Shown here in pieces: positions 48,970-64,000 of a stretch of 64,000 bases of DNA. The stretch covers positions 973,615-1,037,614 of the forward strand of contig JAYQJO010000001.1 in NCBI GenBank assembly GCA_038142205.1. The letters run 5' to 3'. The DNA is from Pseudomonadota bacterium. GTDB lineage: Bacteria; Pseudomonadota; Gammaproteobacteria; Eutrophobiales; Eutrophobiaceae. Below the pieces are notes generated by a model. That model had not been told where the DNA came from. It was given only the letters and a program-made list of their open reading frames with translations, and did not search any database. Every line of letters begins with the position of its first letter. Position 1 is the stretch's first letter. The position numbers were made by a program, and so were the translations under genes.

Positions 48970-49038
48970 TTTATTCTTTCTTAAATAGAATTTGTCCTTA
49001 ATCAATAGACCAGACTATAATCAACGACAATTTAGAAT

Positions 49039-49398
49039 TTGGGGAAATCTGTGGCGGTAAAAATGATTCTTGTTCCTGTTCGCTCAAGTAAGCAAGGCAC
49101 TTCTTTAAATGAGGGTAAACTCAAAGAAGAATATATCAAAGTAACTTCTACTCTTGAGATGAACCCTGATGACATGTCAAAACTTAAATTAGTTGATGGC
49201 GATGAAGTTCGTTTAAAAAACGAAATTGGAGAAACAATTGTTCGCTGCATTGCAAAGAAACCAGAAGAATTACCAGCTGGGACACTCTTTCTCCCCTATG
49301 GCCCACCATCTAGTCAACTAATGGATAGTGATACTGCTGGTAGCGGCATGCCCCTATCCAAGCATATGGAAGTAGAAATTGAGAAAATAGTCAGTTAA
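49039..49398 (+). CDS. fwdD: Formylmethanofuran dehydrogenase subunit D (molybdopterin dinucleotide-binding)
   Basis: RSSKQG, MNPDDM..GDEV, LFLPYGP, T.GSGMPLSK..VEIE; directly upstream of fwdB; exact start uncertain. Confidence 0.85.
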   Translation: MGKSVAVKMILVPVRSSKQGTSLNEGKLKEEYIKVTSTLEMNPDDMSKLKLVDGDEVRLKNEIGETIVRCIAKKPEELPAGTLFLPYGPPSSQLMDSDTAGSGMPLSKHMEVEIEKIVS

Positions 49399-49438
49399 AC
49401 GCATACTATGGGCCTGGATTACACTGAGGTGAGTTCGA

Positions 49439-50798
49439 ATGAGTGAAAATATCAAGATTGTTAAAGATGCCACATGTACCTTTTGTGGCTGTGTTTGTGA
49501 CGATATGGAGCTTCATGTCGATGTTGAAGAAAAACGTATCGTTAAAGCTAAAAAGGCCTGTATTCTCGGAAAGGCTTGGTTTTTAGAACACACAATCGAA
49601 GACGCTCCAGCAGCAATGATTGACGGAAAAGAAGTCTCTGTTGAAGAAGCCATTGAAGAAGCCGCTCAAACTCTGGTAAATGCAAAGTTTCCTATTACCT
49701 ATGGACTTAGTGACACAACAAGTGAAGCTCAGCGACAAGCAGTAGCAATTACCGACTACATTCATGGAAGTATTGATACCACTACATCCGTCTGCCATGG
49801 TCCATCTGGTCTGGCATTCCAGGGAATTGGTGAAAGTACCAGTACCCTTGGAGAGGTCAAAAATAGAGCGGATTTGGTCATCTATTGGGGGGGGAATCCT
49901 GCAGAATCTCATCCTCGCCACTTTGGACGCTATGCCGTTACAGCCAAAGGTATGTTTACTCCTGGCGGTAAGAAAGACAGAACGATTGTAATGGTGGATG
50001 TACGCAAAACGAAAAGTTCTCCGGTTGCTGATATTAATAACACCAAAATTAGGTAAAGATTTTGAAGTGTTGTGGGCACTTCGAGCATTAGTAAAAGGTA
50101 AAAAATTAGCAGATAATATTGAAGAAGTGACAGGCGTTCCTCTTGAAACATTAGAAGATCTCGCTGATCGTATGAAAAACTGTAAGTTTGGTGTTTTATT
50201 CTTTGGTATGGGCCTTACTATGACCCGAGGCCGTCACTTCAATTCAGGCGCCCTTCTCGCATTAGCGACTGATTTAAATGAATTTACACATTTTGTTGCT
50301 AAACCTGTTCGTGGTCATGGAAATGTAACCGGAGCAGATAACGTTGTTTCATGGCAAACAGGCTATCCATTTGGCGTTAATTTTAGCCGTGGTTACCCTC
50401 GTTTTAATCCAGGCGAATTTACCACTGTAGACACCTTATCTAACGGTCATGCTGATGCCGCATTAATTATTGCGTCCGACCCTGGTTCTAATTTCCCGAA
50501 AAAAGCGATTGACCATCTGAAGAGTATTCCTGTGGTAGCGCTAGATACCAAACGTACCGAAACAACGAAAGACGCGCACGTTGCATTCAAAACATCAACT
50601 TATGGTATTAATACTGCTGGTACCGCATACCGTATGGATGATGTTCCTATAACACTGAGACCGGCATTTGAATCACCTTTTCCAGATGATGAATCCATTT
50701 TGATAGGTATTAAAAAACGCGTGCAAGAACTAATGCTGGCTAAGCATCAGGCAAGTGGAGCAAGCGGCGAAGCAAAAGTCGCTGCAAAAGTACTTTAA
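49439..50798 (+). CDS. fwdB: Formylmethanofuran dehydrogenase Mo/W catalytic subunit B (frameshift near 50035)
   Basis: CTFCGCVCDD..C Fe-S motif, TTSVCHGPS, TLGEVKNRAD, WGGNPAESHPRH, RGHGNV, WQTGYPF, GTAYRMD. Confidence 0.9.
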
Positions 50799-50996
50799 TT
50801 TGACGCTACTTTAATTTTAATTACGACATAATCGTGATAGATTTATAGAATAATTTTTTTGAATTACTGAGACCATTTACGAGAATTACAAACTAAACTT
50901 AATAGTTATTATTTAATACTATTTTGGTTAGAGAACTTCAATAAACAGTCATCGTAAAATTACTCAAAATATAACTAGAATATTTAGGGGTATTTG

Positions 50997-52637
50997 ATGG
51001 CAGCTTCAATGCGCATCATCAATGGCAAGGTTTATGACCCTGCTAATGGTATCGATGGCAAGATAAAAGAAATTTGCATTAAAGACGGTAAGATCGTCGA
51101 GTCAGCTGCAGATGATGCAACAGTCATTGATGCACAAGGTATGGTCATTATGCCTGGTGCAGTAGACATTCATTGCCACATTGCCGGCACCAAAGTAAAC
51201 GCTTCAAGAAAACTGCAACCCGAGGATCATCGGCATGATGTTCATCCTGGAACACCATTTACACGTTCAGGTACGGGCGGCACTGTTCCGTCAACATTTG
51301 CTACTGGTTATCGTTACGCTACTTTAGGTTATACAACCGCAATGGAAGCTGCTGCTACGCCTATCGGCGCACGTCATACCTTAGAAGAATTTCATGACAC
51401 ACCTGTCATAGATAAAGGCTTTTATGTTTTACTTGCTAACAATATTTTCTTGCAGCAGCTACTCCGTGATAAGCGAACTGAAGAATTTGATCAAGCACTT
51501 GCCTGGTGGATTAATGCGACAAAGGCCTACACGGTAAAATTGGTTAACCCAGGTGGCGATGAACCATGGAAAGGTAAAAAGAATTCCAACGTCGCTGATA
51601 TCGATGAAAAAAACGATGAAGATCTATCGCCTCGTCAAATTATCGAAGCCTTTATCACTTCAGCTAACAAACAAGGTTTCCCAAAGCCACCTCATATTCA
51701 CTGTAATAACTTGGGACACAGTGGCAATTACATTACAACACTAGAAACAATGAAAACTGCGGGGGACCAACGTGTTCATCTTGCACATATTCAGTTCCAC
51801 AGTTACGGCGGCGAATTAGGTAAGAATCCAAATTCAAAAGCAAAAGAAATCATTGAATATATAAATGAACATCCCAATATCACCTGCGATGTAGGCCAAG
51901 TTATGTTTGGTAAAGCAACCATCATGACGGCGGATGCACCATTAGCTTATGTATTGAAAGGTCATACCAAAGGTAAATGGATAAATGCAGATACAGAGTG
52001 TGAAAGTGGTTGCGGCATCGTACCTTTCAATTATCAAGAGCACATTTTCATACATACACTCCAATGGGCAATTGGCTTGGAATTATTCCTGATGTCAAAA
52101 GATCCCTGGCGCGTACTTTTATCAACCGATCATCCTAATGGCGGTTCGTTTATGAGTTATCCAAAATTGATTAAATTGTTAATGGATAAGTCATTCAGAC
52201 GCGAAGAAATGAAACGCGTTAATCAAAGCGCACTAGACCACTGTTCGCTACGAGATTTGGAACGTGAATATACATTGAATGAAATCGCGATTATTACCCG
52301 TGCTGGACCAGCTAAAGTACTGGGCTTGAAAAACAAAGGTCATTTAGGTGCAGGAGCGGATGCAGACATTACCATTTATGATGAAATGGAAGATAAGGAA
52401 ATGATGTTTAATGCGCCGCGCTATGTCATTAAATCTGGTCATACTATTATTGCAAACCATGAATTCGTAACTGACTTTATCGGCAAACAACTACATATAG
52501 AACCTGAGTATGACAATAAAATCGAAGAAGTGTTGAAACCTTTCTTCGAAAGTTACTATTCCATTGAATTTTCCAATTATGCTGTTAACGATAGTTACTT
52601 GCATGATCATGAAATTATTCCGTGTAAGAAAGTATAA
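50997..52637 (+). CDS. fwdA: Formylmethanofuran dehydrogenase amidohydrolase subunit A (copy 1)
   Basis: DIHCH, KLVNPGG, HIHCNNLG, HLAHIQF, QWAIGLE, STDHPNGG. Confidence 0.92.
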   Translation: MAASMRIINGKVYDPANGIDGKIKEICIKDGKIVESAADDATVIDAQGMVIMPGAVDIHCHIAGTKVNASRKLQPEDHRHDVHPGTPFTRSGTGGTVPSTFATGYRYATLGYTTAMEAAATPIGARHTLEEFHDTPVIDKGFYVLLANNIFLQQLLRDKRTEEFDQALAWWINATKAYTVKLVNPGGDEPWKGKKNSNVADIDEKNDEDLSPRQIIEAFITSANKQGFPKPPHIHCNNLGHSGNYITTLETMKTAGDQRVHLAHIQFHSYGGELGKNPNSKAKEIIEYINEHPNITCDVGQVMFGKATIMTADAPLAYVLKGHTKGKWINADTECESGCGIVPFNYQEHIFIHTLQWAIGLELFLMSKDPWRVLLSTDHPNGGSFMSYPKLIKLLMDKSFRREEMKRVNQSALDHCSLRDLEREYTLNEIAIITRAGPAKVLGLKNKGHLGAGADADITIYDEMEDKEMMFNAPRYVIKSGHTIIANHEFVTDFIGKQLHIEPEYDNKIEEVLKPFFESYYSIEFSNYAVNDSYLHDHEIIPCKKV

Positions 52638-52639
52638 GC

Positions 52640-53533
52640 ATGAAAATTAAATCAACCGAAATAGTCGATACATTTGCCGAAGCATTCAAAATGTATGGCA
52701 GCCGAATTATTATCACGGCGGAAACGAAAGAATGGGCAATGGCTGCCGCTCAATCAATAACCGGGTTTGCGACTTCAGTTATTGGTTGTAAATGTGAAGC
52801 AGGCATAGAAACAGAGATTTCTGCTGATGACTCACCTGACTTAAGACCCGGTGTTAGCGTTTTAATGTTTGCCATGGATGCAGAAAGCTTAGGCAAACGT
52901 TTAATGGAACGCATAGGCCAATGTGTCATGACCTGCCCTAGTACGGCCTGTTATAACGGATTAAATGAAGGGATGCCTGTCACTGTTGGTGGACAATTAC
53001 GCTACTTTGGCGACGGTAATCAAAGCAGTAAAGTCATGGGAGACAATAAATTTTGGCGTATACCCGTTATGGATGGCGAATTCCTTATTGAGGATTCTTT
53101 TAAGGTTCAGGAATCTGTCGGTGGCGGAAATATTTTAATTCTCGGTAAAAACCAAAAGGCCACACTCAAGGCTGCCAGTGCGGCAACCAAAGCCATGCGT
53201 ACTTTACCTGATATTATCCTACCCTTTCCGAATGGCGTTGTTCGAATCGGTAGTAAAGTCGGTTCAAGATATAAATCATTAATCGCTTCGACCAACCATG
53301 CATATTGTCCAACTCTGCGTGGCGTTGTTAAAAAATCAGAGTTAGGCGGTGACATTAATAGCGTCCTTGAAATCGTTATTGATGGTTTAAGTCCTGAAGC
53401 CGTTGAAGAAGCCATGCGTGTCGGTATGAATGCAGCTTCAAAACCGGGTATCAAACAGATATCTGCAGGTAATTATGGTGGCGATCTTGGTCAATACCAT
53501 TTGAAATTACATCAAATATTAGGAGCTGCATAA
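52640..53533 (+). CDS. ftr: Formylmethanofuran:H4MPT formyltransferase (copy 1)
   Basis: DTFAEAF, GFATSVIGC, RIGQCVMTCP, GSKVGS, EIVIDG, SAGNYGG. Confidence 0.93.
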   Translation: MKIKSTEIVDTFAEAFKMYGSRIIITAETKEWAMAAAQSITGFATSVIGCKCEAGIETEISADDSPDLRPGVSVLMFAMDAESLGKRLMERIGQCVMTCPSTACYNGLNEGMPVTVGGQLRYFGDGNQSSKVMGDNKFWRIPVMDGEFLIEDSFKVQESVGGGNILILGKNQKATLKAASAATKAMRTLPDIILPFPNGVVRIGSKVGSRYKSLIASTNHAYCPTLRGVVKKSELGGDINSVLEIVIDGLSPEAVEEAMRVGMNAASKPGIKQISAGNYGGDLGQYHLKLHQILGAA

Positions 53534-54345
53534 TGGCTCTAACACTCAAGTTACACACGCAACCGGATGTGCCGCTAGAAGCAGACTGCATTAGCCCTGA
53601 TCGACTTCAATCTTTAAGTCATTCAGAAGTTGCTTCTCAAACCGTATTCCATGGTAATCGTCAGGTGCCACTGGGTGAATTCTTTGATTGCTCAGGTAAG
53701 TTTGATGGTGAAATTGTTATTGATGGTGACTGTAACAAGATAAAACACATCGGTTCTGTTATGTCATTTGGCAAAATAACGGTTGAAGGTAATGTCGGCG
53801 TGCATACTGGCGCAGTGATGCGTGGCGGAGAGATTCTTATTAATGGTGATGCCAGTGATTGGGTTGGGCCTGAAATGCTGGGAGGAAGAATAACTGTCAA
53901 AGGTAATGCCGGGCACATGATAGGCAGCGGTTACCGAGGTAGCACAGTGGGTATGCAAGGCGGTGAAATTATTGTTCACGGCAATGTAAAAAATGAAACC
54001 GGCCATGTCATGCGACGCGGTTTGATTGTCGTTGGTGGTGACTCAGGTGATTTTACCGGCGTTAACATGCTTGCAGGTACTATTATTGTCCTGGGGCAAA
54101 TGGGCATTAGAACAGGCGCTGGAATGAAACGAGGCACTGTTATTAGTCTTCAAAAAGCGGAAATGATCCCGACCTTTAGTCATAGCTGCCAATATCACCC
54201 CTCTTTTATTCGTTATTATTATAGATACTTAAAAACGTTGGGACTCAATATCGATGAAACATTTCTGAATGGAATGTTTGAGCGTTGGTGTGGAGATTCA
54301 ATTGAATTAAATCGAGGAGAAATTCTTTTATACGCAGGAAAATAA
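53533..54345 (+). CDS. fwdC: Formylmethanofuran dehydrogenase subunit C (copy 1)
   Basis: ISPDRL, GxGxG beta-helix repeats, MRRG, GAGMKRGT, GEIL. Confidence 0.92.
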   Translation: MALTLKLHTQPDVPLEADCISPDRLQSLSHSEVASQTVFHGNRQVPLGEFFDCSGKFDGEIVIDGDCNKIKHIGSVMSFGKITVEGNVGVHTGAVMRGGEILINGDASDWVGPEMLGGRITVKGNAGHMIGSGYRGSTVGMQGGEIIVHGNVKNETGHVMRRGLIVVGGDSGDFTGVNMLAGTIIVLGQMGIRTGAGMKRGTVISLQKAEMIPTFSHSCQYHPSFIRYYYRYLKTLGLNIDETFLNGMFERWCGDSIELNRGEILLYAGK

Positions 54346-54392
54346 ACATCATCACCAGAGAATGCCTTTAAAGGCAATGAGGAGACAAAACG

Positions 54393-54698
54393 ATGACTAC
54401 AATCGTAACTGAAAACTGTAAAAACTGCCGTTTTACTGACTGTGTAACCGTATGCCCGGTCGCTTGCTTCCATTATGACGATGAAATGTTATATATCGAT
54501 CCAGATACATGTATCGATTGCAGCGCTTGTATTCCGGAATGCCCTGTTCAGGCAATTTTTGAGGGTGATGATATTCCAGAAGATCAAGAACATTGGATTG
54601 AAATTAATGCTGAGAAAGCAGCTTCACTGCCGGTTTGTGAAGAGCAAATGGAACCCTTAGCTGGAGCCGAAGAACGTAAAGCTGAATTAGGTTTTTAA
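54393..54698 (+). CDS. fdxA: Dicluster FdI/FdxA-type ferredoxin
   Basis: CKNCRFTDCVTVCP and CIDCSACIPECP; GAGGAG RBS. Confidence 0.9.
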   Translation: MTTIVTENCKNCRFTDCVTVCPVACFHYDDEMLYIDPDTCIDCSACIPECPVQAIFEGDDIPEDQEHWIEINAEKAASLPVCEEQMEPLAGAEERKAELGF

Positions 54699-54721
54699 CT
54701 TAACAATAAAATTAAAATAAT

Positions 54722-56104
54722 ATGTCAACTTTAGGAACAAATGAGAACCCTTTATTAATTGCAATAGTAGGTAGTGGCCCAAGCGGTTTCTATGCAGCAG
54801 AAGCGCTCATAAAATCAGACATTAAAACAAAAGTAGACATGTTAGAGCGTCTTCCCTCTCCTTATGGGCTTGTCAGAAGTGGAGTCGCACCTGACCATCA
54901 AAAGTTAAAACAAGTGATAGCGCTTTATCAAAAGACATCTAGTTCACCGGATTTTAATTTAATTGCTAACGTTAATGTTGGCGAAGATATTTCAGTCGAA
55001 GAACTTTGCCAATCACATCATGCTGTGATTATGACTTCAGGTGCAGAGACAGATAGAAAATTAGGTGTGCGTGGAGAAGATTTATCTGGAAGTTATACCG
55101 CAACGGAATTTGTCGGTTGGTATAACGGTCACCCAGATTATAGAGATCGTCAATTTGATCTCTCTCATGACGTTGCTGTAATTATTGGCCAAGGTAATGT
55201 TGCAGCAGACGTAAGTCGTATATTGGCAAAAACAGTTGATGAATTAAAACATACAGACATAGCACAACATGCACTTGATGCTCTGGCAGAAAGTAAAATA
55301 AAGGAAATTCATGTCATTGGGCGGCGTGGTCCAGCACAAGCCAAATTTACACCAAAAGAATTACGTGAATTTGGTGAACTCTCCGACTGTAATTCTATTG
55401 TTCGAGAAGAAGATATGCCTCTTAATCCCGAAAGCGAAACAGAGTTGCTGGAAAAAAGTAACATTGCAAGTAAAAAAATCTATGATCAATTTTGCGATTT
55501 TTCTAAACGTGAAATTGACACCTCAAAATCAAGAAATTGTCATTTTAGTTTTCTTATGGGGCCAAAAGAATTGGTAGGTGAATCAAAACTGGAAAAAGTA
55601 ATCCTGGAAAAAAATCAATTATCAGGTAATGCATTTAAACAATCGGCACGAGGAACAGGAGAAACGGTAGAACTTGAAACTGGAATACTATTTCGAAGTA
55701 TCGGTTATCGTGGCGTTCCTATAAGTGGTGTTCCATTTCATGATAGCTGGGGAACTATTCCTAATGAAAAAGGAAGAATTACCGATAACGATGGTAACCT
55801 AGTACCAAAACTTTATACCGCAGGCTGGATAAAACGCGGACCAAGTGGAATTATTGGTACTAATCGTGCGTGCAGTGTTGAAACAGTAGAAAGCTTACTG
55901 GAAGATTTAAATAAATTAGATGATGGCACAAGTAAAGCTGGTGCGGCAAAAATTTATTCAATACTAGATGACAAACAGATACAACATGTTAGTTTTAATG
56001 ATTGGGAAAAAATAGATAGAAAAGAAATTGAAGCTGGAGAGTCTAAAGATAAACCTCGCGAAAAATTCACATATATTAATGAGATGTTATCAATTATCAA
56101 GTAA
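54722..56104 (+). CDS. Ferredoxin-NADP+ reductase, adrenodoxin-reductase/FprA type
   Basis: GSGPSG, PYGLVRSGVAPDH, FVGWYNGHP, GQGNVAAD, GRRGP, GWIKRGPSGIIGTN. Confidence 0.92.
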   Translation: MSTLGTNENPLLIAIVGSGPSGFYAAEALIKSDIKTKVDMLERLPSPYGLVRSGVAPDHQKLKQVIALYQKTSSSPDFNLIANVNVGEDISVEELCQSHHAVIMTSGAETDRKLGVRGEDLSGSYTATEFVGWYNGHPDYRDRQFDLSHDVAVIIGQGNVAADVSRILAKTVDELKHTDIAQHALDALAESKIKEIHVIGRRGPAQAKFTPKELREFGELSDCNSIVREEDMPLNPESETELLEKSNIASKKIYDQFCDFSKREIDTSKSRNCHFSFLMGPKELVGESKLEKVILEKNQLSGNAFKQSARGTGETVELETGILFRSIGYRGVPISGVPFHDSWGTIPNEKGRITDNDGNLVPKLYTAGWIKRGPSGIIGTNRACSVETVESLLEDLNKLDDGTSKAGAAKIYSILDDKQIQHVSFNDWEKIDRKEIEAGESKDKPREKFTYINEMLSIIK

Positions 56105-56134
56105 AGTGATTTAATCTAAATCATTCTCTTTTTT
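56105..56134 (+). terminator. Weak terminator-like hairpin after the reductase
   Basis: AGTGATTTA-ATC-TAAATCATT followed by CTCTTTTTT. Confidence 0.4.
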
Positions 56135-56253
56135 AGACTAAAATAATAATAAGAACAGTGAAGCGGCTAATAATAATTGGCGCAAACTAATTTTTGTTGT
56201 AACGCGTTTTGCAACACTTTAATTATAAAAAATTAAAAACCTAGGATTTATCG

Positions 56254-57531
56254 TTGGAAGAAAATACAAACTATAACGGCACTGTCACGAAAAATGTTTC
56301 TTGTCCATTTTGCGGGATACTGTGCGATGATCTTGTCATTCAAAATGAAGAAAACCATTTAAAAGTTTTAAAAAATGGTTGCCTAAAGTCAAAAGCGATT
56401 ATTCAAAAAGATATAGCAAAAGCTTCTGCTCAGCTTAAAGGTAAAAATGTTTCTCTTGATGAGGCAATTGATCATGCTTCTAATATTTTGAAAAAATCAC
56501 ATGCGCCTCTTTTTGCAGGTTTAGGTACTGAAGTTTCAGGTATGCGTAAAGTCATGGAATTAGCAGATAAAACAGGGGCGATTCTTGATCATATGCACGG
56601 TGATGGTTTAATTCGTAACATACTAGTACTACAAGATCTTGGCTGGTTAACTACAACTATGGCCGAAATCAAAAACCGGGCTGATCTAGTTATTTTTGCG
56701 GGCACCGATGCAACAAACTTCCCAAGGTTCTATGAACGCGTTATTTGGAATAAAAATTCAATGTTCATAAAAAATAGTGAAGAAAAAGATATCGTTTATA
56801 TAGGAGACAATCTGGATAGCAAACCAGGCATCAGTCCAAATGGAAAACGCCCGATACATTTAAAATGCAAAACAGAAGAAATTGGTGAAATTATTTCAAG
56901 CTTACACGCACTTGCTTCCGAAGCGACATTGGATGTTAAAGAAGTTGCCGGAATTAAAATAAGCACACTGAAAGCATTAGCAGAAAAGATGAAAACTACT
57001 AAGTACGGCGTTATAGTCTGGGCACCAAGCGAACTCGATATTCCTCATGCAGAGCTTACCATTCAAAACTTCTGTGAAACGGTTAAGTATCTAACTCGTT
57101 TTACTCGCTTTGCCGGTTTTTCCTTAGGTGGCAATGATGGCGGCATGAGTGCTATTGGTGTTAGTGCATGGCAAAGCGGCTACCCTTTACGTGTTAATTT
57201 TAATAAAGGTTACCCAGACTATGATGCGCATCGATATTCAACAAAAAATGTATTAAGGAATAAAGAAGTTGACGCCCTGCTCTGGGTATCCAGTTTTGAA
57301 TCAGAAAAAACACCTCCTAAAGCCTCTATACCAACAATTGTGCTAGGCAACCCTGGATACAAATTAGGTTTTAAACCAGATGTTTTTATTCCTGTTGCGA
57401 CCCCAGGCGTTGATCATACTGGACAAATAATCCGTACAGACAGTGTTGTATCACTTCCATTAAAACAACTAAGACACTCCCCTTATGAAAGTGTTCATTC
57501 AATACTCAAACAAATTATAGTCAGGCTCTAG
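56254..57531 (+). CDS. fhcB: Formyltransferase/hydrolase complex subunit B (non-catalytic FwdB homologue)
   Basis: CPFCGILCDD retained, but ILDHMHGDG replaces the Cys-His ligand motif and LGGNDG replaces RGHxNV; EIKNRAD, WQSGYP. Confidence 0.9.
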   Translation: MEENTNYNGTVTKNVSCPFCGILCDDLVIQNEENHLKVLKNGCLKSKAIIQKDIAKASAQLKGKNVSLDEAIDHASNILKKSHAPLFAGLGTEVSGMRKVMELADKTGAILDHMHGDGLIRNILVLQDLGWLTTTMAEIKNRADLVIFAGTDATNFPRFYERVIWNKNSMFIKNSEEKDIVYIGDNLDSKPGISPNGKRPIHLKCKTEEIGEIISSLHALASEATLDVKEVAGIKISTLKALAEKMKTTKYGVIVWAPSELDIPHAELTIQNFCETVKYLTRFTRFAGFSLGGNDGGMSAIGVSAWQSGYPLRVNFNKGYPDYDAHRYSTKNVLRNKEVDALLWVSSFESEKTPPKASIPTIVLGNPGYKLGFKPDVFIPVATPGVDHTGQIIRTDSVVSLPLKQLRHSPYESVHSILKQIIVRL

Positions 57532-57540
57532 GTTGAATTA

Positions 57541-59195
57541 ATGTATACAAAATTAACAAACGGAAAAATCTACGATCCTGTTCACGGGATAAACGGAGAA
57601 CACCGGGATATTTATATTCGTGATGGTTACATCACACGAAAACCTTCTGCTAATGTAAAAATAGATCAAACCTTTGACATGAAAGGTAAGATTATTATGG
57701 CTGGAGCTATCGATATACACACTCATATTGGTGGCGGCAAAGTTAATATCGCCCGAATGATGTTACCTGAAGATCACGAAGCTGACTTGGTAAGCAAAAC
57801 AAACATAACGCGTTCTGGCTGTGGCAATGCTGCACCTTCTACCTTGACCGCTGGCTATCGCTATGCCGAGATGGGATACACTGCTTGTTTTGAACCGGCG
57901 ATGTTACCAACAAATGCACGTCAAACACATATGGAAATGGCAGATACCCCAATGGTTGATAAAGGCGCCTATGCCTTGATTGGTAGCGATGATTTTTTCT
58001 TACGCATGATGGCTTCAAAAAAAGAGCAAGCCGCAATCAGCGACTATGTTGGTTGGATAATTAACGCAACACAAGCATTAGGTATAAAGGTTGTTAACCC
58101 TGGTGGAATCAATGCATTCAAATTTAATCAACGTAAACTTGATTTGGATGAACAAAACTCGCATTACGGCGTATCACCTCGACAAATTTTAATCGCATTA
58201 GCTAGAGCTGTAACAGAATTAGGTATTCCCCATCCATTACATGTACATGGCTGTAACCTAGGTGTGCCCGGCAATGTAGAAACTACACTAGAAACTATTC
58301 GGGCGGCAGAAGGCATGCGCATGCATATAACACATATTCAGTTCCACAGTTACGGAATTGAAGGGGACAGAAAGTTTTCATCTGGCGCAGCTGAAATTGC
58401 AGAGGCAATTAATAAAAACCCGAATATTTCTGTCGATGTTGGCCAAATTCTATTTGGGCAGACTGTTACTGCTTCTGGTGATGCTATGCACCAATATGAA
58501 AGTCATTGGCATGCTCATCCAAAAAATGGGTGGTGATGGATATTGAATGTGATGCGGGTTGTGGTGTTGTTCCATTTAAATATCGCGACAAAAACTTTGT
58601 TAATGCATTGCAGTGGGCTATTGGCCTTGAGTTATTTTTACTTATTGATGATCCATGGCGAGTTTTCCTGACGACCGATCATCCTAATGGCGCCCCTTTT
58701 ACCAGCTATCCACACTTAATTCGCTTGCTGATGGATAAAAGCTTTAGAAACGATATGCTTTCTACAATTAACAAAGATTCAGCTGCGAGCAGTACACTTG
58801 CAAGTATAGATAGAGAATATTCCCTGTATGAAATTGCTATCATGACTCGAGCTGCACCAGCAAGAAGCCTGGGTTTAAAAAATCGCGGTCATTTAGGTTC
58901 TGGCGCGATAGCTGATATCACGGTTTACACTGAACAAAAAAATAAAGAAAAAATGTTCAGTACGCCTGACTATGTTTTCAAAGATGGTGAAGTCATTGTG
59001 AAAAAAGGGAAAATTAGCAAAGTTGTTCATGGTGGAACACATACTTTAAGGCCTGAATTTGATATGGGAATTGAAAAATCACTAAAACGTTATTTCGATC
59101 AATATCAAACAATGAGCCTTGGAAATTTTAAAATAGATGATGATGAAATTGTTGAACATGGCAATAGTAAAATTATTGTTCAACCTTGCATGTAA
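57541..59195 (+). CDS. fhcA: Formyltransferase/hydrolase complex subunit A (frameshift at A6 58521-58526)
   Basis: DIHTHIGGGK, KVVNPGG, HVHGCNLG, HITHIQF, then ECDAGCG, QWAIGLE, TTDHPNG. Confidence 0.93.
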
Positions 59196-59204
59196 AATAA
59201 AGTC

Positions 59205-60104
59205 ATGAAAATTAACGGTGTAGAAATTGTAGATACGTTTGCGGAAGCTTTCCCTATGAAAGCAACTCGCATAATCATAACGGCTATGACATTAAAGTGG
59301 GCCTACCAAGCAGCGAACGCAATTCGCGGCTTTGCCTCTTCTGTTATTGCTTGTGGTATTGAGGCAGATATAGAACGGGAACTGACTCCATCAGAAACTC
59401 CTGATGGGCGCCCAGGTATTTCGGTCATGATATTCGCCATGTCGCTTAAAGAACTGGAAAAACATGTCCCGACACGCGTGGGACAATCCGTTATGACTAC
59501 AGCAACAACAGCTTGTTTTTCTGGGATAGACGATGCTACTCAAAAAGTATCAATGGGAAAAAGTTTACGTTTTTTTGGAGATGGTTATCAGATTTCAAAG
59601 ACAATAGGTAATAAACGTTTTTGGAGAATTCCTGTAATGCATGGCGAATTTATCTGTGAAGAAACATCAGGCGTAACTAAAGCTATTGGTAGTGGTAATT
59701 TTCTTGTTTTTGCGAAAACAGCACGTCAGGGGCTGGCCGCATGCGAAAAAGCAGTCGATGAAATTCAAAAGCTCCCGGGTGTCATCACCGCTTTTCCTGG
59801 TGGTGTCGTAGGTTCCGGCTCAAAAGTGGGTTCGAAATATAGCTATCTAACAGCGTCAACAAATGAAGCATACTGCCCTACTTTAAAAGGCCAAGTTAAT
59901 TCGGCATTAAGTGATGATGTTGGCTCTGTCCTGGAAATTGTTATTGATGGTTTATCTGAAGAATCAATTAATGAAGCAATGCGCATCGGTATTAAAGCAG
60001 CGTGCTCATTCGGTGCAGTGAAAGGTATCTGTAGCATCAGTGCCGGCAACTACGGTGGTAATCTGGGGCCTCATTTATTTCATTTAAGGAAGCTATTGAA
60101 ATGA
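59205..60104 (+). CDS. fhcD: Formyltransferase/hydrolase complex subunit D (formyltransferase copy 2)
   Basis: DTFAEAF, TPDGRPG, GSKVGSKY, EIVIDG, SAGNYGG. Confidence 0.93.
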   Translation: MKINGVEIVDTFAEAFPMKATRIIITAMTLKWAYQAANAIRGFASSVIACGIEADIERELTPSETPDGRPGISVMIFAMSLKELEKHVPTRVGQSVMTTATTACFSGIDDATQKVSMGKSLRFFGDGYQISKTIGNKRFWRIPVMHGEFICEETSGVTKAIGSGNFLVFAKTARQGLAACEKAVDEIQKLPGVITAFPGGVVGSGSKVGSKYSYLTASTNEAYCPTLKGQVNSALSDDVGSVLEIVIDGLSEESINEAMRIGIKAACSFGAVKGICSISAGNYGGNLGPHLFHLRKLLK

Positions 60105-60934
60105 GCGCATTGACACTGACATTAAAGTCTCACCCTAAATTCACGCTAGACATGTCTCCTATTACGCCAGACAAGTTGCAGGATTTATCACTCGAAAAAA
60201 TTAAAAAATTAAAATTGGGCTATGGCAAGAAAACAGTAAAAGTAGAAGCATTGTTTGCTGTAAAAGGTCGTGATAAAAATAATATTGTCATTAATAAAAG
60301 TCATAGCCAGCTTATATGTATTGGCAAAGAAATGAGCATGGGAAAAATTACAGTGAAGGGTGATGTTGGTGACTTTCTGGGACAGTTGATGAAAAAAAAT
60401 GGTGAAATCACAGTGCACGGCAATGCTGGCTCATGGGCTGGAAATGGAATGTCCGGTGGCCGCATTAACGTAATTGGTAATGTGCTCGATTATGCAGGTG
60501 GAGGTTTACCCGGCAACGCATTCGGTATGACTAATGGCTTAATTAATATTACCGGTAATGCTGGTGATCGAGTTGGCGATCGTATGCGACGTGGCATTAT
60601 TGTTATTCAAGGGAAATCAGGGGACTTTTGTGGAAGTCGAATCCATGCCGGAACCATTATCGCTTTGGGTAAAGTAGGAAAAAACCCCGGTGAAGGTATG
60701 CGACGAGGAACAGTCATACTCGCTAAAAAACCCGCGCATATCTCTTCTACATTTAAAAGTTGTGGTAATCTTAAAATGCAGTTTTTACGCTTACTTTTTA
60801 CACAATTGTCAAAAATAGATGATTGTTTTCAGTTTTTTAGTAAGTACGGACCTGAAGCCCATCGCTTTGCAGGCGATATAGCAAGAAATGGCAAAGGTGA
60901 AATATTAATTTTACAAACTATGAATAAAAGATAA
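60101..60934 (+). CDS. fhcC: Formyltransferase/hydrolase complex subunit C
   Basis: LDMSPITPD, GDRMRRG, GMRRGT, GD..GKGEI. Confidence 0.92.
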   Translation: MSALTLTLKSHPKFTLDMSPITPDKLQDLSLEKIKKLKLGYGKKTVKVEALFAVKGRDKNNIVINKSHSQLICIGKEMSMGKITVKGDVGDFLGQLMKKNGEITVHGNAGSWAGNGMSGGRINVIGNVLDYAGGGLPGNAFGMTNGLINITGNAGDRVGDRMRRGIIVIQGKSGDFCGSRIHAGTIIALGKVGKNPGEGMRRGTVILAKKPAHISSTFKSCGNLKMQFLRLLFTQLSKIDDCFQFFSKYGPEAHRFAGDIARNGKGEILILQTMNKR

Positions 60935-60937
60935 GCA

Positions 60938-62605
60938 ATGAAACGTACTCGTGGTAAGAAAGGCCGAATACTTGGCAGGGTCATGGATCAACATGCACTA
61001 TTACAAGTGCAGGAACTGATAGGTGACGAAGCAAAAACTCGTGATATGTTGATAGAGCACCTGCATAAGATACAGGATAAGTATCATCATATTTCCAACA
61101 GACATATTCTTGCACTGGCTAAGGAAATGAACTTACCAATGGCAGAAGTTTATGAGACAGCCACGTTTTATCATCACTTTGATGTTACGAAAGAAGGTGA
61201 AATTCCACCACCATCTATAACATTGCGCGTTTGTGAGTCAGTAAGTTGTGAAATGTTTGGTGCGAAAAAACTCATTGAAGAGTTGGGACCAGAAATAGAC
61301 AAGAAAAAAGTTCGAATCCAGCCTGTTCCTTGTGTAGGTCGTTGTGCAGCAGCGCCTGTTGCTGTGTTGGGCACTAACCCTATCGAAAAAGCAAATAAAG
61401 AATCGGTTATAGCGGCTATAGAAAATAAAAAATTAACTGATTCACTCCCTGAAAACTATATTGATTACAACACCTATAAAGAACAAAGCGGATATAAAAC
61501 ACTTGTTGATTGCATCAATGGCAAATATCAGCCAGAAGACATAATCGCTACTTTGGAAGACTCAAACATACGTGGTTTAGGTGGAGCAGGCTTTCCTATT
61601 GGTCGTAAATGGCAAATATTAAGTAAGCAAAAAGAACCTAAGATGATTGCAATAAATATTGATGAAGGAGAACCCGGCACATTTAAAGATCGATATTATC
61701 TGGAAACCGATCCTCATCGTTTTATTGAAGGGACTTTAATTGCACATTGGGCAATAAAAGCCAAAGATGTTTATATCTATCTACGCGATGAATATGCCGG
61801 TTGTCGAATGATGTTAGAAAAAGAACTAAAAGCACTTAAGAGTAATCCGCCTTGTGAATTACCGGAGATACATCTGCGTCGTGGTGCAGGCGCTTATATC
61901 TGTGGTGAAGAGTCGGCCATGATTGAATCAATTGAAGGTAAACGCGGCATGCCACGCCTGCGGCCACCTTATCTAGCAGAAGTAGGATTATTTGGTCATC
62001 CTACACTTGAGCAAAACATGGAGAGTATGCACTGGATAAGAGACATCATAGAAAAAGGTGCTGATTGGTTTTCATCTAACGGTCGACGCGATAGAAAAGG
62101 CCTCCGTTCATTCTCTGTTAGCGGCCGTGTAAATAAACCAGGCGTTCATCTAGCACCTGCAGGTATTAGCATGCGTGAATTAATTGATGAGTATTGCGAT
62201 GGCATGATAAATGGGCACGAATTCTACGGTTATTTTCCTGGGGGCGCTTCTGGTGGAATATTACCGGCTTCTCTTGGAGATGAACCATTAGATTTCGATA
62301 CATTACAAAAACACGGTTGTTTTATTGGTTCTGCCGCAATCGTCGTGTTATCTAACAAAGATAGTGCTAAAGAAATGGCATTAAATTCAATGCGTTTCTT
62401 TGAAGATGAATCTTGTGGTCAATGTACACCATGTCGTGTTGGTACAGAAAAGGCCGTAAAGCTCATGGAAAAAGATGAATGGGATCAACCTCTATTAGAA
62501 GAATTATCTTCTGCCATGATCGATGCTTCTATTTGTGGCCTTGGTCAAGCTGCCCCGAATCCATTACGTTGCGCAATGAAATATTTTCCAGAGGAATTTG
62601 AATAA
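60938..62605 (+). CDS. NAD-dependent formate dehydrogenase beta subunit (NuoE/NuoF-like, Fdh1B type)
   Basis: LIEHLHKIQD, CESVSC..CVGRC 2Fe-2S, GLGGAGFP, DEGEPGTFKD, GAYICGEE, ESCGQCTPCR..SICGLG. Confidence 0.92.
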   Translation: MKRTRGKKGRILGRVMDQHALLQVQELIGDEAKTRDMLIEHLHKIQDKYHHISNRHILALAKEMNLPMAEVYETATFYHHFDVTKEGEIPPPSITLRVCESVSCEMFGAKKLIEELGPEIDKKKVRIQPVPCVGRCAAAPVAVLGTNPIEKANKESVIAAIENKKLTDSLPENYIDYNTYKEQSGYKTLVDCINGKYQPEDIIATLEDSNIRGLGGAGFPIGRKWQILSKQKEPKMIAINIDEGEPGTFKDRYYLETDPHRFIEGTLIAHWAIKAKDVYIYLRDEYAGCRMMLEKELKALKSNPPCELPEIHLRRGAGAYICGEESAMIESIEGKRGMPRLRPPYLAEVGLFGHPTLEQNMESMHWIRDIIEKGADWFSSNGRRDRKGLRSFSVSGRVNKPGVHLAPAGISMRELIDEYCDGMINGHEFYGYFPGGASGGILPASLGDEPLDFDTLQKHGCFIGSAAIVVLSNKDSAKEMALNSMRFFEDESCGQCTPCRVGTEKAVKLMEKDEWDQPLLEELSSAMIDASICGLGQAAPNPLRCAMKYFPEEFE

Positions 62606-64000
62606 TGGCTGCGAATCCTAAGCTCATGAATGAAAAATCAATCAGTTTCAAACTTAATGGTGAAGAAGTTGAAGCATACGGCGACGAAACTATTCTCCAA
62701 GCAGCAAAACGTAATGATGTAGAAATTCCTCACCTTTGTTTTAAAGAAGGATATCGACCGGATGGGAACTGTCGAGCATGTATGGTTGAAATTAATGATG
62801 AACGTGTTTTAGCACCCTCCTGTTGTCGTCAACCAACAGAAGGCATGGAAGTTAAAAGTGATAGTGAGAGAGCACAAAATTCTCAAAAAATGATTTTAGA
62901 ATTACTACTCGCAGATATGCCTCAACAAGGGAAGTCTCCGTATAAATTAGATTCTGAGCTGGATTACTGGGTTGATAAAATGGGTATTTATAATCCACGT
63001 TTTGAAGCAAATAAAGATCAACCAAGCCCAGATCTATCTCACCCTGCAATAGCTGTTAATTTAGATGCGTGTATTCAATGTACGCGATGTGTCAGAGCCT
63101 GCCGTGAAGAACAGGTTAACGATGTTATTGGTTACGCTTTTCGAGGAAAACATTCAGAAATTGTTTTTGATATGGCGGAACCTATGGGTGAAAGCACCTG
63201 TGTCGCTTGCGGCGAATGTGTGCAAGCCTGCCCTACTGGCGCATTGATGCCCGCTAAAAATGTTGGGCTTATTGAGCCAGATAAAGTCGTTGACTCAGTT
63301 TGTCCATACTGCGGTGTTGGTTGTCTACTAAGCTTCAATGTTAAGAACAATCATATTCAATATGTAGAAGGTCGTGATGGCCCATCAAATAAAGGCCGAT
63401 TGTGTGTTAAGGGTCGATATGGTTTTGATTACATCCATCATCCAGATCGATTAACTAAACCATTAATTCGTCGAGAAGGTGTAGAGAAGACAGCCGCTTT
63501 AATTGATCCACTGGAAATGCACAAATATTTTCGTGAAACAACCTGGGAAGAAGCTTTAGAGTTTGCCGCCGAAGGCTTGAATAAGATTAAAAATGAAAAA
63601 GGTTCACAGGCGCTTGCTGGACTTGGTTGTGCAAAAGGCAGTAACGAAGAAGCTTATTTAGTACAAAAATTAGTACGAACCGGTTTTGGCACAAATAACA
63701 TTGATCATTGCACCCGGCTTTGTCATGCATCTTCAGTAGCGGCCTTATTGGAAACAATTGGATCTGGGGCTGTTTCAAATCAAGTCTCTGATGGTTCATT
63801 CGCCGAAGTAATAATTGTTATTGGCGCCCGACCTAATGATAACCATCCTGTAGCAGCTACCTTCATCAAGAATGCAGCTGAACGCGGCAGTAAATTAATC
63901 GTAATAGAACCCTATGGCTCTGATATGTCTTTACATGCCTCTCATTTCATGCAGTTACGTCCTGGCACGGATGTTTTGTTATTAAATGCCATGATGCATG
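62605..64000 (+). CDS. Mo/W formate dehydrogenase alpha subunit (Fdh1A type; runs off window)
   Basis: Manual translation from ATG 62605: IPHLC..GNCRACMVE..C, CIQCTRCVRAC, CVACGECVQACP, CPYCGVGC, NNIDHCTRLCHASS (Cys ligand). Confidence 0.93.
   Translation, partial: MAANPKLMNEKSISFKLNGEEVEAYGDETILQAAKRNDVEIPHLCFKEGYRPDGNCRACMVEINDERVLAPSCCRQPTEGMEVKSDSERAQNSQKMILELLLADMPQQGKSPYKLDSELDYWVDKMGIYNPRFEANKDQPSPDLSHPAIAVNLDACIQCTRCVRACREEQVNDVIGYAFRGKHSEIVFDMAEPMGESTCVACGECVQACPTGALMPAKNVGLIEPDKVVDSVCPYCGVGCLLSFNVKNNHIQYVEGRDGPSNKGRLCVKGRYGFDYIHHPDRLTKPLIRREGVEKTAALIDPLEMHKYFRETTWEEALEFAAEGLNKIKNEKGSQALAGLGCAKGSNEEAYLVQKLVRTGFGTNNIDHCTRLCHASSVAALLETIGSGAVSNQVSDGSFAEVIIVIGARPNDNHPVAATFIKNAAERGSKLIVIEPYGSDMSLHASHFMQLRPGTDVLLLNAMMH

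What the first reader, a model, noticed from the sequence alone, without database searches (positions are those of the whole stretch)
49039..60934. Two formyl-furan complexes in tandem: an apparently redox-competent archaeal-style Fwd next to the canonical Fhc
Seen: complete duplicate B/A/formyltransferase/C sets. Copy 1 includes fwdD, and its B subunit keeps the [4Fe-4S] motif, TTSVCHG (Cys-His) and RGHGNV. Copy 2 has no fwdD, and its B subunit has lost these catalytic residues. Established: Fhc of proteobacterial methylotrophs only hydrolyses formyl-furan to formate, whereas archaeal FwdBD bind Mo/W-bis-pterin and interconvert formate and CO2. Inference: this bacterium may run two alternative terminal routes. 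One oxidises formyl-methylofuran to CO2 inside the complex, yielding low-potential electrons. The other releases formate for the adjacent NAD-linked Fdh. FwdD-bearing clusters are known from some other bacterial lineages, so the novelty lies in this dual, co-located arrangement.
Basis: partly seen in the sequence, partly recalled or inferred. Interest (0 to 1): 0.88.

Follow-up and report, generated by a model that had tools for sequence, protein, structure and literature searches.

The report
Bacterial formyl-methanofuran dehydrogenase beside Fhc hydrolase
This marine bacterium carries, side by side, the usual bacterial enzyme that releases formate at the end of formaldehyde oxidation and an archaeal-style version that keeps all its redox residues and always travels with its own ferredoxin and NADPH-ferredoxin reductase genes, which suggests a second, so far undescribed route straight to CO2.

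Summary
The two tandem gene sets are real. Set 1 is fwdD-fwdB-fwdA-ftr-fwdC. Its B subunit keeps the four [4Fe-4S] cysteines, the Cys-His pair and the Arg of archaeal FwdB.

In related loci this pair follows the fwd set in 59 of 63 cases. It lies beside an fhc set in only 1 of 12 Fhc-only genomes.

The dual layout is not special to this bacterium. It occurs in 6 of 6 relatives fetched and in 24 of 55 loci from other metagenome-assembled genomes. Five of five complete genomes without the tandem set have only the Fwd-type B.

The breaks in fwdB, fhcA and also mch are most likely assembly indels. Fifteen of 137 orthologues are split genome-wide, mostly at homopolymers, and an independent metagenome contig carries both genes intact.

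Best reading: set 1 is a formyl-methanofuran dehydrogenase that passes electrons through ferredoxin and FprA to NADP+, and set 2 plus the NAD-linked formate dehydrogenase is the classical formate route. No biochemistry exists. I rate it a new variant of a known kind.

The parts
49039..49398 (+). fwdD: small subunit equivalent to domain IV of molybdopterin enzymes, which caps the pterin site
   Evidence: Pfam Molydop_binding, E 4e-12. NCBIfam FwdD 74 bits, below its archaeal cut-off of 175. All 5 PDB hits are FwdD/FmdD chains. It is the only strong copy in the genome.
49439..50798 (+). fwdB: catalytic Mo/W-pterin subunit. In this assembly it is read in two frames (49439-50056 and 49998-50798), with two bases missing after 50033.
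   Evidence: TIGR03129 matches both halves, profile positions 2-193 and 198-421. The intact orthologue scores 380 bits against 5t5i_B with Cys-His and Arg aligned. The gene is intact in 9 of 9 relatives. An independent contig from run X5 has TT behind 50033.
50994..52637 (+). fwdA: amidohydrolase subunit that interconverts formyl-methanofuran and formate
   Evidence: TIGR03121 694 bits. The best PDB hits are archaeal FwdA/FmdA at 476-399 bits, against 343 bits for FhcA.
52640..53533 (+). ftr copy 1: formylmethanofuran:H4MPT formyltransferase
   Evidence: Pfam FTR and FTR_C. NF002554 429 bits. It is 52-55% identical to the copy 2 formyltransferase of relatives.
53533..54345 (+). fwdC: beta-helix (GXGXG) subunit
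   Evidence: TIGR03122 269 bits. Pfam GXGXG.
54393..54698 (+). 7Fe-type ferredoxin, the proposed electron acceptor of FwdB
   Evidence: 102 bits against A. vinelandii ferredoxin I with the same Cys pattern. It follows fwdC in 60 of 63 loci.
54722..56104 (+). FprA / adrenodoxin-reductase-type NADPH:ferredoxin reductase
   Evidence: 345 bits against M. tuberculosis FprA (1lqt) and 311 bits against adrenodoxin reductase. It occurs with the ferredoxin in 59 of 63 loci.
56254..57531 (+). fhcB: scaffold B subunit without Cys-His-Arg but with the four N-terminal Cys
   Evidence: TIGR03129 308 bits, below the cut-off. 131 bits against FwdB and 100 bits against FhcB 6s6y_B. Residue string CCCCGLG.
57541..59195 (+). 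fhcA: formyl-methanofuran hydrolase. In this assembly it is read in two frames (57541-58536 and 58506-59195), with A6 where relatives have seven bases (A7, or T+A6 in one).
   Evidence: TIGR03121. Alignment to relatives. The gene is intact in the 7 relative loci that span it. Run X5 and the RNA run X16 carry an extra A behind 58520. The orthologue's best PDB hit is FhcA 6s6y_A at 443 bits.
59205..60104 (+). fhcD: formyltransferase copy 2
   Evidence: NF002554 441 bits.
60101..60934 (+). fhcC
   Evidence: TIGR03122 249 bits.
60938..63999 (+). NAD-linked formate dehydrogenase, beta subunit (60938-62605) and alpha subunit (62605 onward, running off the window)
   Evidence: Pfam Complex1_51K, 2Fe-2S_thioredx, Molybdopterin and Molybdop_Fe4S4. 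It follows the fhc set in relatives and stays with fhc where the two sets are separated.

Best explanation
The window holds two alternative terminal modules of the H4MPT/methanofuran pathway of formaldehyde oxidation.

Module 1 is fwdD-fwdB-fwdA-ftr-fwdC-fdx-fprA. I read it as a true formyl-methanofuran dehydrogenase.
1. Ftr moves the formyl group from H4MPT to methanofuran.
2. FwdA hydrolyses it.
3. FwdB/FwdD oxidise the formate to CO2 at a Mo- or W-bis-pterin site.
4. The electrons leave through the FwdB [4Fe-4S] cluster to the adjacent 7Fe ferredoxin.
5. The FprA-type reductase passes them to NADP+, giving NADPH without free formate.

Module 2 is fhcB-A-D-C followed by fdhB-fdhA. It is the classical formyltransferase/hydrolase, which releases formate for the NAD-linked formate dehydrogenase.

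Shown here: gene content, the conserved residues, the linkage patterns, and an intact allele in other data. Inferred: cofactor binding, direction of the reaction, and the ferredoxin to FprA to NADP+ path. My rough odds are 0.8 that FwdBD is redox-active, 0.7 that the neighbouring ferredoxin is its partner, and 0.55 for the whole chain.

The frame breaks in fwdB, fhcA and mch are read as assembly indels.
For: Residues and similarity:
- The intact orthologue of copy 1 B aligns over residues 7-433 with solved M. wolfei FwdB (380 bits), with the four Cys, Cys-His and Arg in register.
- These seven residues are kept in 89 of 90 Fwd-type sequences and are invariant in alignments of 9 and 26 sequences.
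- FwdD matches only FwdD/FmdD chains in the PDB.
- FwdA is closest to archaeal FwdA, 476-399 bits against 343 for FhcA.

Linkage in the best 80 loci:
- fwdD lies upstream in 75 of 78.
- fwdA+ftr+fwdC are present in 65 of 66.
- fdx+fprA lie downstream in 59 of 63.

Controls and partners:
- fdx+fprA lie beside fhc in 1 of 12 Fhc-only genomes and beside fwd in 3 of 3 further Fwd loci. In G179, where the sets are apart, fdx-fprA stays with fwd and fdhBA stays with fhc.
- Five of 5 complete genomes without a tandem fhc set have the Fwd-type B as their only B, so the module can stand alone.
- The ferredoxin is of the A. vinelandii 7Fe type and the reductase is FprA-like.

Thermodynamics and precedent:
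- Formyl-MFR/CO2 is put at about -0.53 V (passage in PMC11656701), far below NADP+. The NADP+ value is recalled.
- An archaeal FMD coupled to F420 instead of ferredoxin is a precedent (passages in PMC11656701; search-listing abstract of PMC11493965).

Intactness:
- Run X5 has an 8161-base contig with 2 other letters that carries TT behind 50033, and a separate 697-base contig that carries A behind 58520.
- 15 of 137 orthologues are split genome-wide, and 13 of 15 junctions lie at homopolymers.
Against: - No metal, pterin or activity data exist for any bacterial member.
- No FwdF/FwdG-type polyferredoxin is in the cluster, so the electron exit differs from every solved FMD.
- Gene linkage does not prove that the ferredoxin docks on FwdB.
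- The AU test does not reject a tree in which the Fwd-type and FhcB-type of these bacteria are one clade (p 0.347). An 'archaeal-style' origin is therefore not shown, and the representatives in the trees carry no taxon names.
- Among 70 full-length family representatives, 57 lack Cys-His-Arg. Loss of redox function is thus frequent in this family.
- The five Fwd-only genomes all have other molybdopterin enzymes and mobA. Their cofactor pathway therefore says nothing about FwdB.
- In this very assembly fwdB, fhcA and mch are broken. The assembly's likely source run gave no laid contigs (X3), so real breaks in this strain are not excluded.
- RNA contigs over both sets come from a metatranscriptome and may hold DNA.
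Confidence: 0.55

Rival explanations
1. Module 1 is only a second formyltransferase/hydrolase isoenzyme. FwdB/FwdD keep ancestral motifs but no longer bind pterin or carry out redox chemistry. The ferredoxin and FprA genes serve some other process.
For: - Loss of Cys-His-Arg with retention of the four Cys is common in the family: 57 of 70 representatives and 56 of 64 FhcB-type sequences keep the Cys motif. Motif retention alone is therefore weak evidence.
- The AU test allows a sister relation to FhcB.
- No polyferredoxin subunit is present.
Against: - All seven residues are kept in 89 of 90 sequences that are down to about 71% identical.
- A separate fwdD gene is kept in 75 of 78 loci. It has no role in a scaffold protein and is absent from Fhc (PMC6926001).
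- fdx-fprA is linked in 59 of 63 loci, against 1 of 12 beside fhc.
Confidence: 0.13
2. Module 1 is redox-active but runs the other way or with another partner. Either it reduces CO2 to formyl-methanofuran with reduced ferredoxin, or it hands electrons to a carrier other than the neighbouring ferredoxin and FprA.
For: - Archaeal FMDs are reversible and use ferredoxin (passages in PMC11656701).
- Linkage does not give a direction.
- Some loci lack fprA (L054).
Against: - NADPH through FprA cannot drive a -0.53 V couple (potential from PMC11656701; the NADP+ value is recalled).
- The genome has PQQ-alcohol dehydrogenase genes and the full fae-mch oxidative island next door, which fits oxidation.
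- fprA is present in 59 of 63 loci.
Confidence: 0.15
3. In this particular strain the pathway is decaying. The breaks in mch, fwdB and fhcA are real mutations and neither complex is made.
For: - There are three breaks within 16 kb of one pathway.
- The fwdB break is a two-base loss, less typical of a read error.
Against: - 15 of 137 orthologues over 400 kb of comparison are split, in many unrelated genes.
- 13 of 15 junction windows hold a homopolymer of 4 or more bases, against 0.51 of random windows.
- Contigs of an independent run that are near-identical (2 other letters in 8161 bases) carry both genes intact. An RNA-library contig carries the intact fhcA site.
- 9 of 9 relatives are intact.
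Confidence: 0.1

Closest known systems
Archaeal tungsten/molybdenum formylmethanofuran dehydrogenase FwdABCD(FG) / Fmd (M. wolfei 5T5I; Ca. Ethanoperedens 8RJA)
   Same: - The A, B, C and D subunits are all present.
- B is collinear with solved FwdB and keeps the four Fe-S Cys, the Cys-His pair and the Arg.
- D matches FwdD chains.
- A is closest to archaeal FwdA.
- Like the Ethanoperedens enzyme, it seems wired to an acceptor of higher potential than ferredoxin alone (passages in PMC11656701).
   Different: - There are no FwdF/FwdG polyferredoxin genes in the cluster.
- A formyltransferase gene is embedded between A and C, as in bacterial fhc.
- A 101-residue 7Fe ferredoxin and an FprA-type NADPH reductase are linked instead.
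- The host is a bacterium with PQQ-alcohol dehydrogenase genes.
- About half of the B residues differ; the closest family representatives are 52% identical or less.
Formyltransferase/hydrolase complex FhcABCD of Methylorubrum extorquens (6S6Y; PMC6926001)
   Same: - Set 2 has the same gene order, fhcB-A-D-C.
- There is no fwdD.
- B lacks Cys-His-Arg.
- A is closest to FhcA.
- A formate dehydrogenase lies next to it.
   Different: - Set 2 B is 425 residues and keeps the N-terminal four-Cys motif. M. extorquens FhcB lacks that domain (passage in PMC6926001). The motif is kept in 56 of 64 FhcB-type sequences here.
- Set 1 differs from Fhc in every defining point.
fwdD-bearing bacterial H4MPT clusters (NC10, Firmicutes, Synergistetes) and the 'bacterial FwdB' of MopB surveys
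   Same: - Bacterial clusters with fwdD are on record (PMC5020050).
- Bacterial FwdB homologues are on record: 149 bacterial representatives in PMC10100899.
   Different: [quoted passage not shown] Here 67 of 80 loci are labelled Gammaproteobacteria.
- Neither paper's passages mention the ferredoxin-FprA linkage or the tandem with fhc. I could not see their supplements.
M. tuberculosis FprA with 7Fe ferredoxin (NADPH:ferredoxin oxidoreductase pair)
   Same: The reductase is full-length similar to FprA, 345 bits. The ferredoxin is of the 7Fe type.
   Different: Here the pair is embedded in a C1-oxidation operon. It would run from ferredoxin to NADP+, not from NADPH to ferredoxin. That FprA pairs with a 7Fe ferredoxin is recalled and comes from no call.

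Membership tests
FwdB/FmdB (catalytic subunit of formylmethanofuran dehydrogenase) | N-terminal four-Cys [4Fe-4S] motif | tested here: met
   C13, C16, C20 and C41 align with the motif of 5t5i_B. They are invariant in 26 of 26 sequences and kept in 90 of 90.
FwdB/FmdB (catalytic subunit of formylmethanofuran dehydrogenase) | Cys/Sec metal ligand followed by His, plus the catalytic Arg | tested here: met
   TSVCHGPS and RGHGNVTG align with ASVCHGPS and RGHYNVTG of M. wolfei FwdB. Kept in 89 of 90 sequences.
FwdB/FmdB (catalytic subunit of formylmethanofuran dehydrogenase) | Domain IV supplied by a FwdD subunit | tested here: met
   fwdD lies 40 bases upstream. PDB hits are FwdD only. It lies upstream in 75 of 78 loci.
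FwdB/FmdB (catalytic subunit of formylmethanofuran dehydrogenase) | Placement with Cys-His-Arg-bearing FwdB-like proteins, outside the FhcB clade | tested here: met
   FastTree and IQ-TREE each give the Fwd-type and FhcB-type groups 100* support. A sister relation of the two is not rejected (AU p 0.347). The representatives carry no taxon labels.
FwdB/FmdB (catalytic subunit of formylmethanofuran dehydrogenase) | Polyferredoxin electron module (FwdF/FwdG) in the complex | tested here: not met
   No such gene lies in 49039-56104. The only Fe-S protein is the 101-residue ferredoxin. The rest of the genome was not searched for FwdF/G.
FwdB/FmdB (catalytic subunit of formylmethanofuran dehydrogenase) | Mo or W bis-pterin content and formyl-methanofuran dehydrogenase activity | not testable with these tools
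   This needs purified protein.
Fhc formyltransferase/hydrolase complex (set 2) | B subunit without Cys-His-Arg and no FwdD | tested here: met
   The three positions are Gly, Leu and Gly. 0 of 64 FhcB-type sequences keep them. The genome has a single fwdD.
Fhc formyltransferase/hydrolase complex (set 2) | B subunit lacking the N-terminal Fe-S domain, as in the solved M. extorquens complex | tested here: not met
   All four Cys are kept and the protein is full length at 425 residues. PMC6926001 describes the domain as missing in M. extorquens.
Fhc formyltransferase/hydrolase complex (set 2) | A subunit and formyltransferase encoded in the cluster, with A closest to FhcA | tested here: met
   6s6y_A is the best PDB hit of the intact orthologue at 443 bits. 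fhcD scores 441 bits against NF002554.
FprA / adrenodoxin reductase family | Full-length similarity to solved FprA | tested here: met
   345 bits over residues 10-458 against 1lqt_A. Nucleotide specificity was not tested.
7Fe ferredoxin (A. vinelandii FdI type) | Cys pattern of one [3Fe-4S] and one [4Fe-4S] cluster | tested here: met
   Cys at 9, 12, 17, 21, 25, 40, 43, 46 and 50 align with FdI. All but C25 are invariant in 26 sequences; C25 is kept in at least 90%. The assignment of each Cys to a cluster is recalled.

The most novel reading that the evidence does not exclude
A widespread but undescribed bacterial enzyme system exists: an NADP-linked formyl-methanofuran dehydrogenase made of FwdABCD, Ftr, a dedicated 7Fe ferredoxin and FprA. 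It oxidises the formyl group to CO2 without free formate. In many Gammaproteobacteria it is the only terminal enzyme of H4MPT-linked C1 oxidation. The textbook rule that bacteria end this pathway with the Fhc hydrolase would then hold for only part of them.
Probability: 0.5. Interest if true: 0.75.

Novelty: new variant of a known kind. Interest (0 to 1): 0.62.

Why it matters
Bacterial methylotrophy is described as ending the H4MPT route with Fhc, a hydrolase that has lost redox function and releases formate (PMC6926001). A 2016 overview states that Proteobacteria have no fwdD (PMC5020050).

This window and its relatives show a seven-gene module with every sequence hallmark of a working dehydrogenase. 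It has its own electron chain, and it occurs mostly in uncultured Gammaproteobacteria; all 80 loci examined are metagenome-assembled genomes.

If the module is active, three things follow.
- It changes carbon and reductant budgets: NADPH instead of NADH, and no formate branch point for assimilation or excretion.
- It offers an oxygen-exposed, soluble FMD with a simple electron partner for CO2-conversion work.
- It gives an intermediate stage for the proposed evolutionary path from Fwd to Fhc.

It also shows that annotation as 'formylmethanofuran dehydrogenase subunit B' hides two functionally different proteins.

Tried and rejected
**Complex prediction.** FwdB (alignment A4) with the ferredoxin (A5) gave score 0.24 against a mark of 0.32. 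The verdict was 'no answer'. It counts neither for nor against binding.

**Taxon names for the family representatives.** PDB searches with P0004, P0005 and P0007 found no near-identical archaeal chain, only 350-462 bits. The trees therefore cannot say whether the nearest kin of the Fwd-type are archaeal.

**Wider FhcB diversity.** The search for homologous proteins with copy 2 B returned only close relatives of 61% identity or more. I used loci from the genome search instead.

**Cofactor-pathway argument.** All five Fwd-only genomes have other molybdopterin-family genes and mobA, so this is uninformative.

**RNA elements.** There are no Rfam matches in 48500-61500 at E up to 1.

**Promoter and terminator scan.** It found no more sites than shuffles give: 28 against a mean of 36.6, and 8 against 9.4. 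The best promoter-like site, 48992-49021, lies just upstream of fwdD.

**Reads.** Run X3, the likely source, gave 0 laid contigs, and X1 gave only short pieces. The break in the source strain itself was not checked.

**Literature.** Searches found no paper that describes the fwd-ferredoxin-FprA module or fwdD in Proteobacteria. This covers only the held library. Supplements of PMC6926001 and PMC10100899 were closed and may list such sequences.
- Papers read as passages only: PMC6926001, PMC5020050, PMC6548844, PMC13108547, PMC13322032, PMC10100899 and PMC11656701.
- PMC11493965 was seen only as a search-listing abstract.
- The M. capsulatus CRISPRi paper lists FMD subunits A and B, Rnf and a ferredoxin among fitness genes but draws no link. 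I did not use it.

**Methylophaga.** I first guessed the organism was Methylophaga. The record titles of relatives do not support this and I dropped it.

**Rows dropped or thinned.**
- Locus tallies count only loci long enough on the relevant side.
- The trees used sequences thinned at 78% identity (58 of 154). They took the first 70 of the 122 representatives of 400 residues or more. The IQ-TREE set was hand-picked, 51 rows.
- The clade for the AU test was named after the tree was seen.

**Unpublished genomes.**
- G068, G170 and G324 are among the 37 B-bearing and the 12 dual genomes. Without them the counts are 34 and 9.
- L132, L134 and L145 are rows of the FastTree and of the 64 FhcB-type sequences.
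- No other claim rests on these genomes.

Full report
**What is there**

On the + strand the window carries thirteen co-directional genes with short gaps.
- Set 1:
  - fwdD (49039-49398)
  - fwdB (49439-50798, in two frames)
  - fwdA (50994-52637)
  - a formyltransferase (52640-53533)
  - fwdC (53533-54345)
- Between the sets: a 101-residue ferredoxin (54393-54698) and a 460-residue flavoprotein (54722-56104).
- Set 2:
  - fhcB (56254-57531)
  - fhcA (57541-59195, in two frames)
  - fhcD (59205-60104)
  - fhcC (60101-60934)
- Downstream: the beta and alpha subunits of an NAD-type formate dehydrogenase (60938 onward).

Pfam and NCBIfam name each part. Upstream on the other strand lies the usual H4MPT/methanofuran island: fae, mch, beta-RFAP synthase, and MptN-, MfnD- and MfnF-like genes. 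The genome is one contig of 2.66 Mb. It holds only these two B genes and one strong fwdD.

**The residues**

The intact orthologue from the closest relative is 95-98% identical to the window's two halves. It aligns over residues 7-433 with the solved M. wolfei FwdB at 380 bits. The four N-terminal Cys, the Cys-His pair and the Arg are all in register. Against M. extorquens FhcB it reaches only 51 bits.

Copy 2 B scores 131 bits against FwdB and 100 bits against FhcB. It has Gly and Leu in place of Cys-His and no Arg. This also differs from M. extorquens FhcB, where that domain is missing (passage in PMC6926001).

FwdD hits only FwdD/FmdD chains in the PDB. Copy 1 A is closest to archaeal FwdA (476-399 bits, against 343 for FhcA). 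The copy 2 A orthologue is closest to FhcA at 443 bits.

**The breaks**

- fwdB lacks two bases after 50033 compared with four relatives.
- fhcA has A6 where three relatives have A7 and the fourth T plus A6.
- mch has a further one-base loss near 45490.

All nine relatives fetched have an intact fwdB, and the seven whose loci span fhcA have it intact.

Contigs of an independent marine metagenome (run X5) cover the region. One contig of 8161 bases differs by 2 other letters and carries TT behind 50033. A separate 697-base contig carries an A behind 58520. A contig of an RNA library (X16) also carries that A. With these bases both frames read like the relatives.

Genome-wide, 15 of 137 orthologous ORFs of 200 residues or more are split across frames when compared over 400 kb with a congener. 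Thirteen of the 15 junction windows hold a homopolymer of 4 or more bases, against 0.51 of random windows.

I therefore read the breaks as assembly indels, with odds of about 0.85-0.9.

**How common it is**

- fwdD is found in 19 of 22 genomes of the genus. The three without it are 80-87% complete.
- The whole thirteen-gene order recurs in 5 of 6 relatives fetched, among them one from another genus. The sixth, G013, has the same order but lacks the reductase gene.
- It also recurs in another family (G038).

A scan of one genome per species found at least 584 stretches that encode a relative of copy 1 B. I examined only the best 80 of these. All 80 are metagenome-assembled genomes by their titles, and 67 are labelled Gammaproteobacteria.

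Among those 80 loci, counting only loci long enough on the relevant side:
- fwdD lies directly upstream in 75 of 78.
- fwdA+ftr+fwdC follow in 65 of 66.
- The ferredoxin and the flavoprotein follow in 59 of 63.
- A tandem fhc set follows in 24 of 55.

Five of five complete genomes without the tandem set have the Fwd-type B as their only B homologue.

In an even sample of 301 genomes of the class, 37 have a B gene. By identity to the copy 2 query, 12 carry both types, 3 only the Fwd type and 22 only the Fhc type. The type was checked by locus inspection in 7 of the 15 Fwd-bearing genomes. Three of the dual genomes are unpublished records.

The dual, co-located layout is therefore a lineage trait shared by many uncultured Gammaproteobacteria, not a peculiarity of this genome.

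**The conserved unit and its electron chain**

- The flavoprotein is full-length similar to M. tuberculosis FprA (345 bits) and to adrenodoxin reductase (311 bits).
- The ferredoxin is of the A. vinelandii 7Fe type, with the same Cys pattern.

As a control I fetched about 20 kb around fhcB in 12 Fhc-only genomes. The pair is there in 1 of 12. It follows fwdC in 3 of 3 further Fwd-bearing loci. In G179 the two sets lie about 8 kb apart and diverge. There the pair stays with fwd and fdhBA stays with fhc.

This linkage is the main new evidence. It suggests that formyl-methanofuran is oxidised within the complex and that the electrons go from the FwdB cluster to the ferredoxin and on to NADP+ through FprA. 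The couple is put at about -0.53 V (passage in PMC11656701), so the reaction would be strongly downhill. It resembles the F420-coupled FMD of an ethane-oxidising archaeon (PMC11656701 passages; PMC11493965 abstract in a search listing). The set 2 route gives free formate and NADH through the neighbouring formate dehydrogenase.

Why keep both? I can only infer.
- One route yields NADPH and the other NADH.
- One route keeps a formate pool for assimilation and the other bypasses it.

The genome has PQQ-alcohol dehydrogenase genes over the family cut-off. It has no hexulose-phosphate synthase over its cut-off and no pmoA match.

**Conservation and trees**

All seven key residues are kept in 89 of 90 Fwd-type sequences from 89 loci. 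Nine of those loci re-sample genomes already present. Cys-His-Arg is kept in 0 of 64 FhcB-type sequences, of which 56 keep the four Cys.

- FastTree, 131 rows: the FhcB-type sequences form one clade (100*). The window's copy 1 sits in a separate clade of Fwd-type sequences (100*), inside a 26-row group rich in Cys-His-Arg bearers (97*).
- IQ-TREE, 51 hand-picked rows rooted on a formate dehydrogenase: Cys-His-Arg bearers lie at the base, then the Fwd-type clade, and the long-stemmed FhcB clade is nested further in.

However, an AU test does not reject a tree in which the two bacterial groups form one clade (p 0.347; the group was named after the tree was seen). The representatives also carry no taxon names. 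'Archaeal-style' thus describes the residues, not a shown origin.

**What is known**

- Hemmann et al. 2019 describe Fhc as having lost pterin, the Fe-S domain and FwdD (passages).
- Chistoserdova 2016 lists fwdD in Archaea, Synergistetes, Firmicutes and NC10, and says it is not present in Planctomycetes or Proteobacteria (passage).
- Wells et al. 2023 count 149 bacterial FwdB representatives and infer transfer from Archaea. They also note that part of their FwdB set lacks the Cys (passages).

None of the passages I saw mentions the ferredoxin-FprA linkage or the tandem with fhc. Five searches found no other paper on it. Supplements were closed.

**Verdict**

The novelty lies not in the tandem but in a conserved seven-gene module that looks like an NADP-linked bacterial formyl-methanofuran dehydrogenase. 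No biochemistry exists, so the mechanism stays an inference at about 0.55. I rate it a new variant of a known kind, with interest 0.62.

Noticed in passing
window 44619-45600 (- strand): mch (methenyl-H4MPT cyclohydrolase) is also split. The first ~35 residues read in another frame, and one base is missing near 45490 compared with a relative.
   Followed up: partly
whole genome G000; e.g. G000:C1:1038117 (about 500 bases past the window's end): 15 of 137 orthologous ORFs are split across frames compared with a congener. Among them is the formate dehydrogenase alpha subunit just beyond the window. 13 of the 15 junction windows hold a homopolymer, which suggests an assembly rich in indel errors.
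   Followed up: yes
window 56254-57531 and FhcB-type genes in L009-L153: FhcB of these bacteria keeps the four N-terminal [4Fe-4S] cysteines (56 of 64 sequences), although Cys-His-Arg is gone. This differs from the solved M. extorquens FhcB and may mean that a cluster is retained in a 'scaffold' subunit.
   Followed up: partly
window 50799-50993: A spacer of about 195 bases lies between fwdB and fwdA. It has sequence blocks conserved within the genus. The spacer is short (30-40 bases) in two other genera, and the closest relative has a further insert of about 150 bases. There is no Rfam match and no ORF of note.
   Followed up: partly
L026, L029, L030: In these close relatives the fwd-ferredoxin-FprA module is followed directly by fdhB-fdhA with no fhc set between, as if the fhc set had been lost or never inserted.
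   Followed up: no
L094, L097 (MAGs labelled Gemmatimonadota): These loci have other layouts with two sets. In L094 a second B has Ala-Ala in place of Cys-His. In L097 an fhc-like set and the ferredoxin-FprA pair precede the fwd set.
   Followed up: no
L158 (G232): This is the one Fhc-only genome with the ferredoxin-FprA pair just upstream of fhcB. It may be a remnant of a lost fwd set.
   Followed up: no
P0001, P0003, P0005, P0008, P0019, P0024, P0134: These family representatives are 570-606 residues long and the FwdB match starts at about residue 140-165. They are apparently fused FwdD-FwdB proteins, and most carry Cys-His-Arg.
   Followed up: no
G000:C1:1041620-1043389 (about 4 kb past the window) and 1547182-1548753: Two PQQ-dependent alcohol (methanol/ethanol family) dehydrogenase genes score over the family cut-off. 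No hexulose-phosphate synthase scores over its cut-off and there is no pmoA match. This points to a methanol oxidiser without the RuMP marker.
   Followed up: partly
window 2489-4055 (- strand): Two overlapping same-strand ORFs (2489-3010 and 2910-4055) look like another split gene.
   Followed up: no
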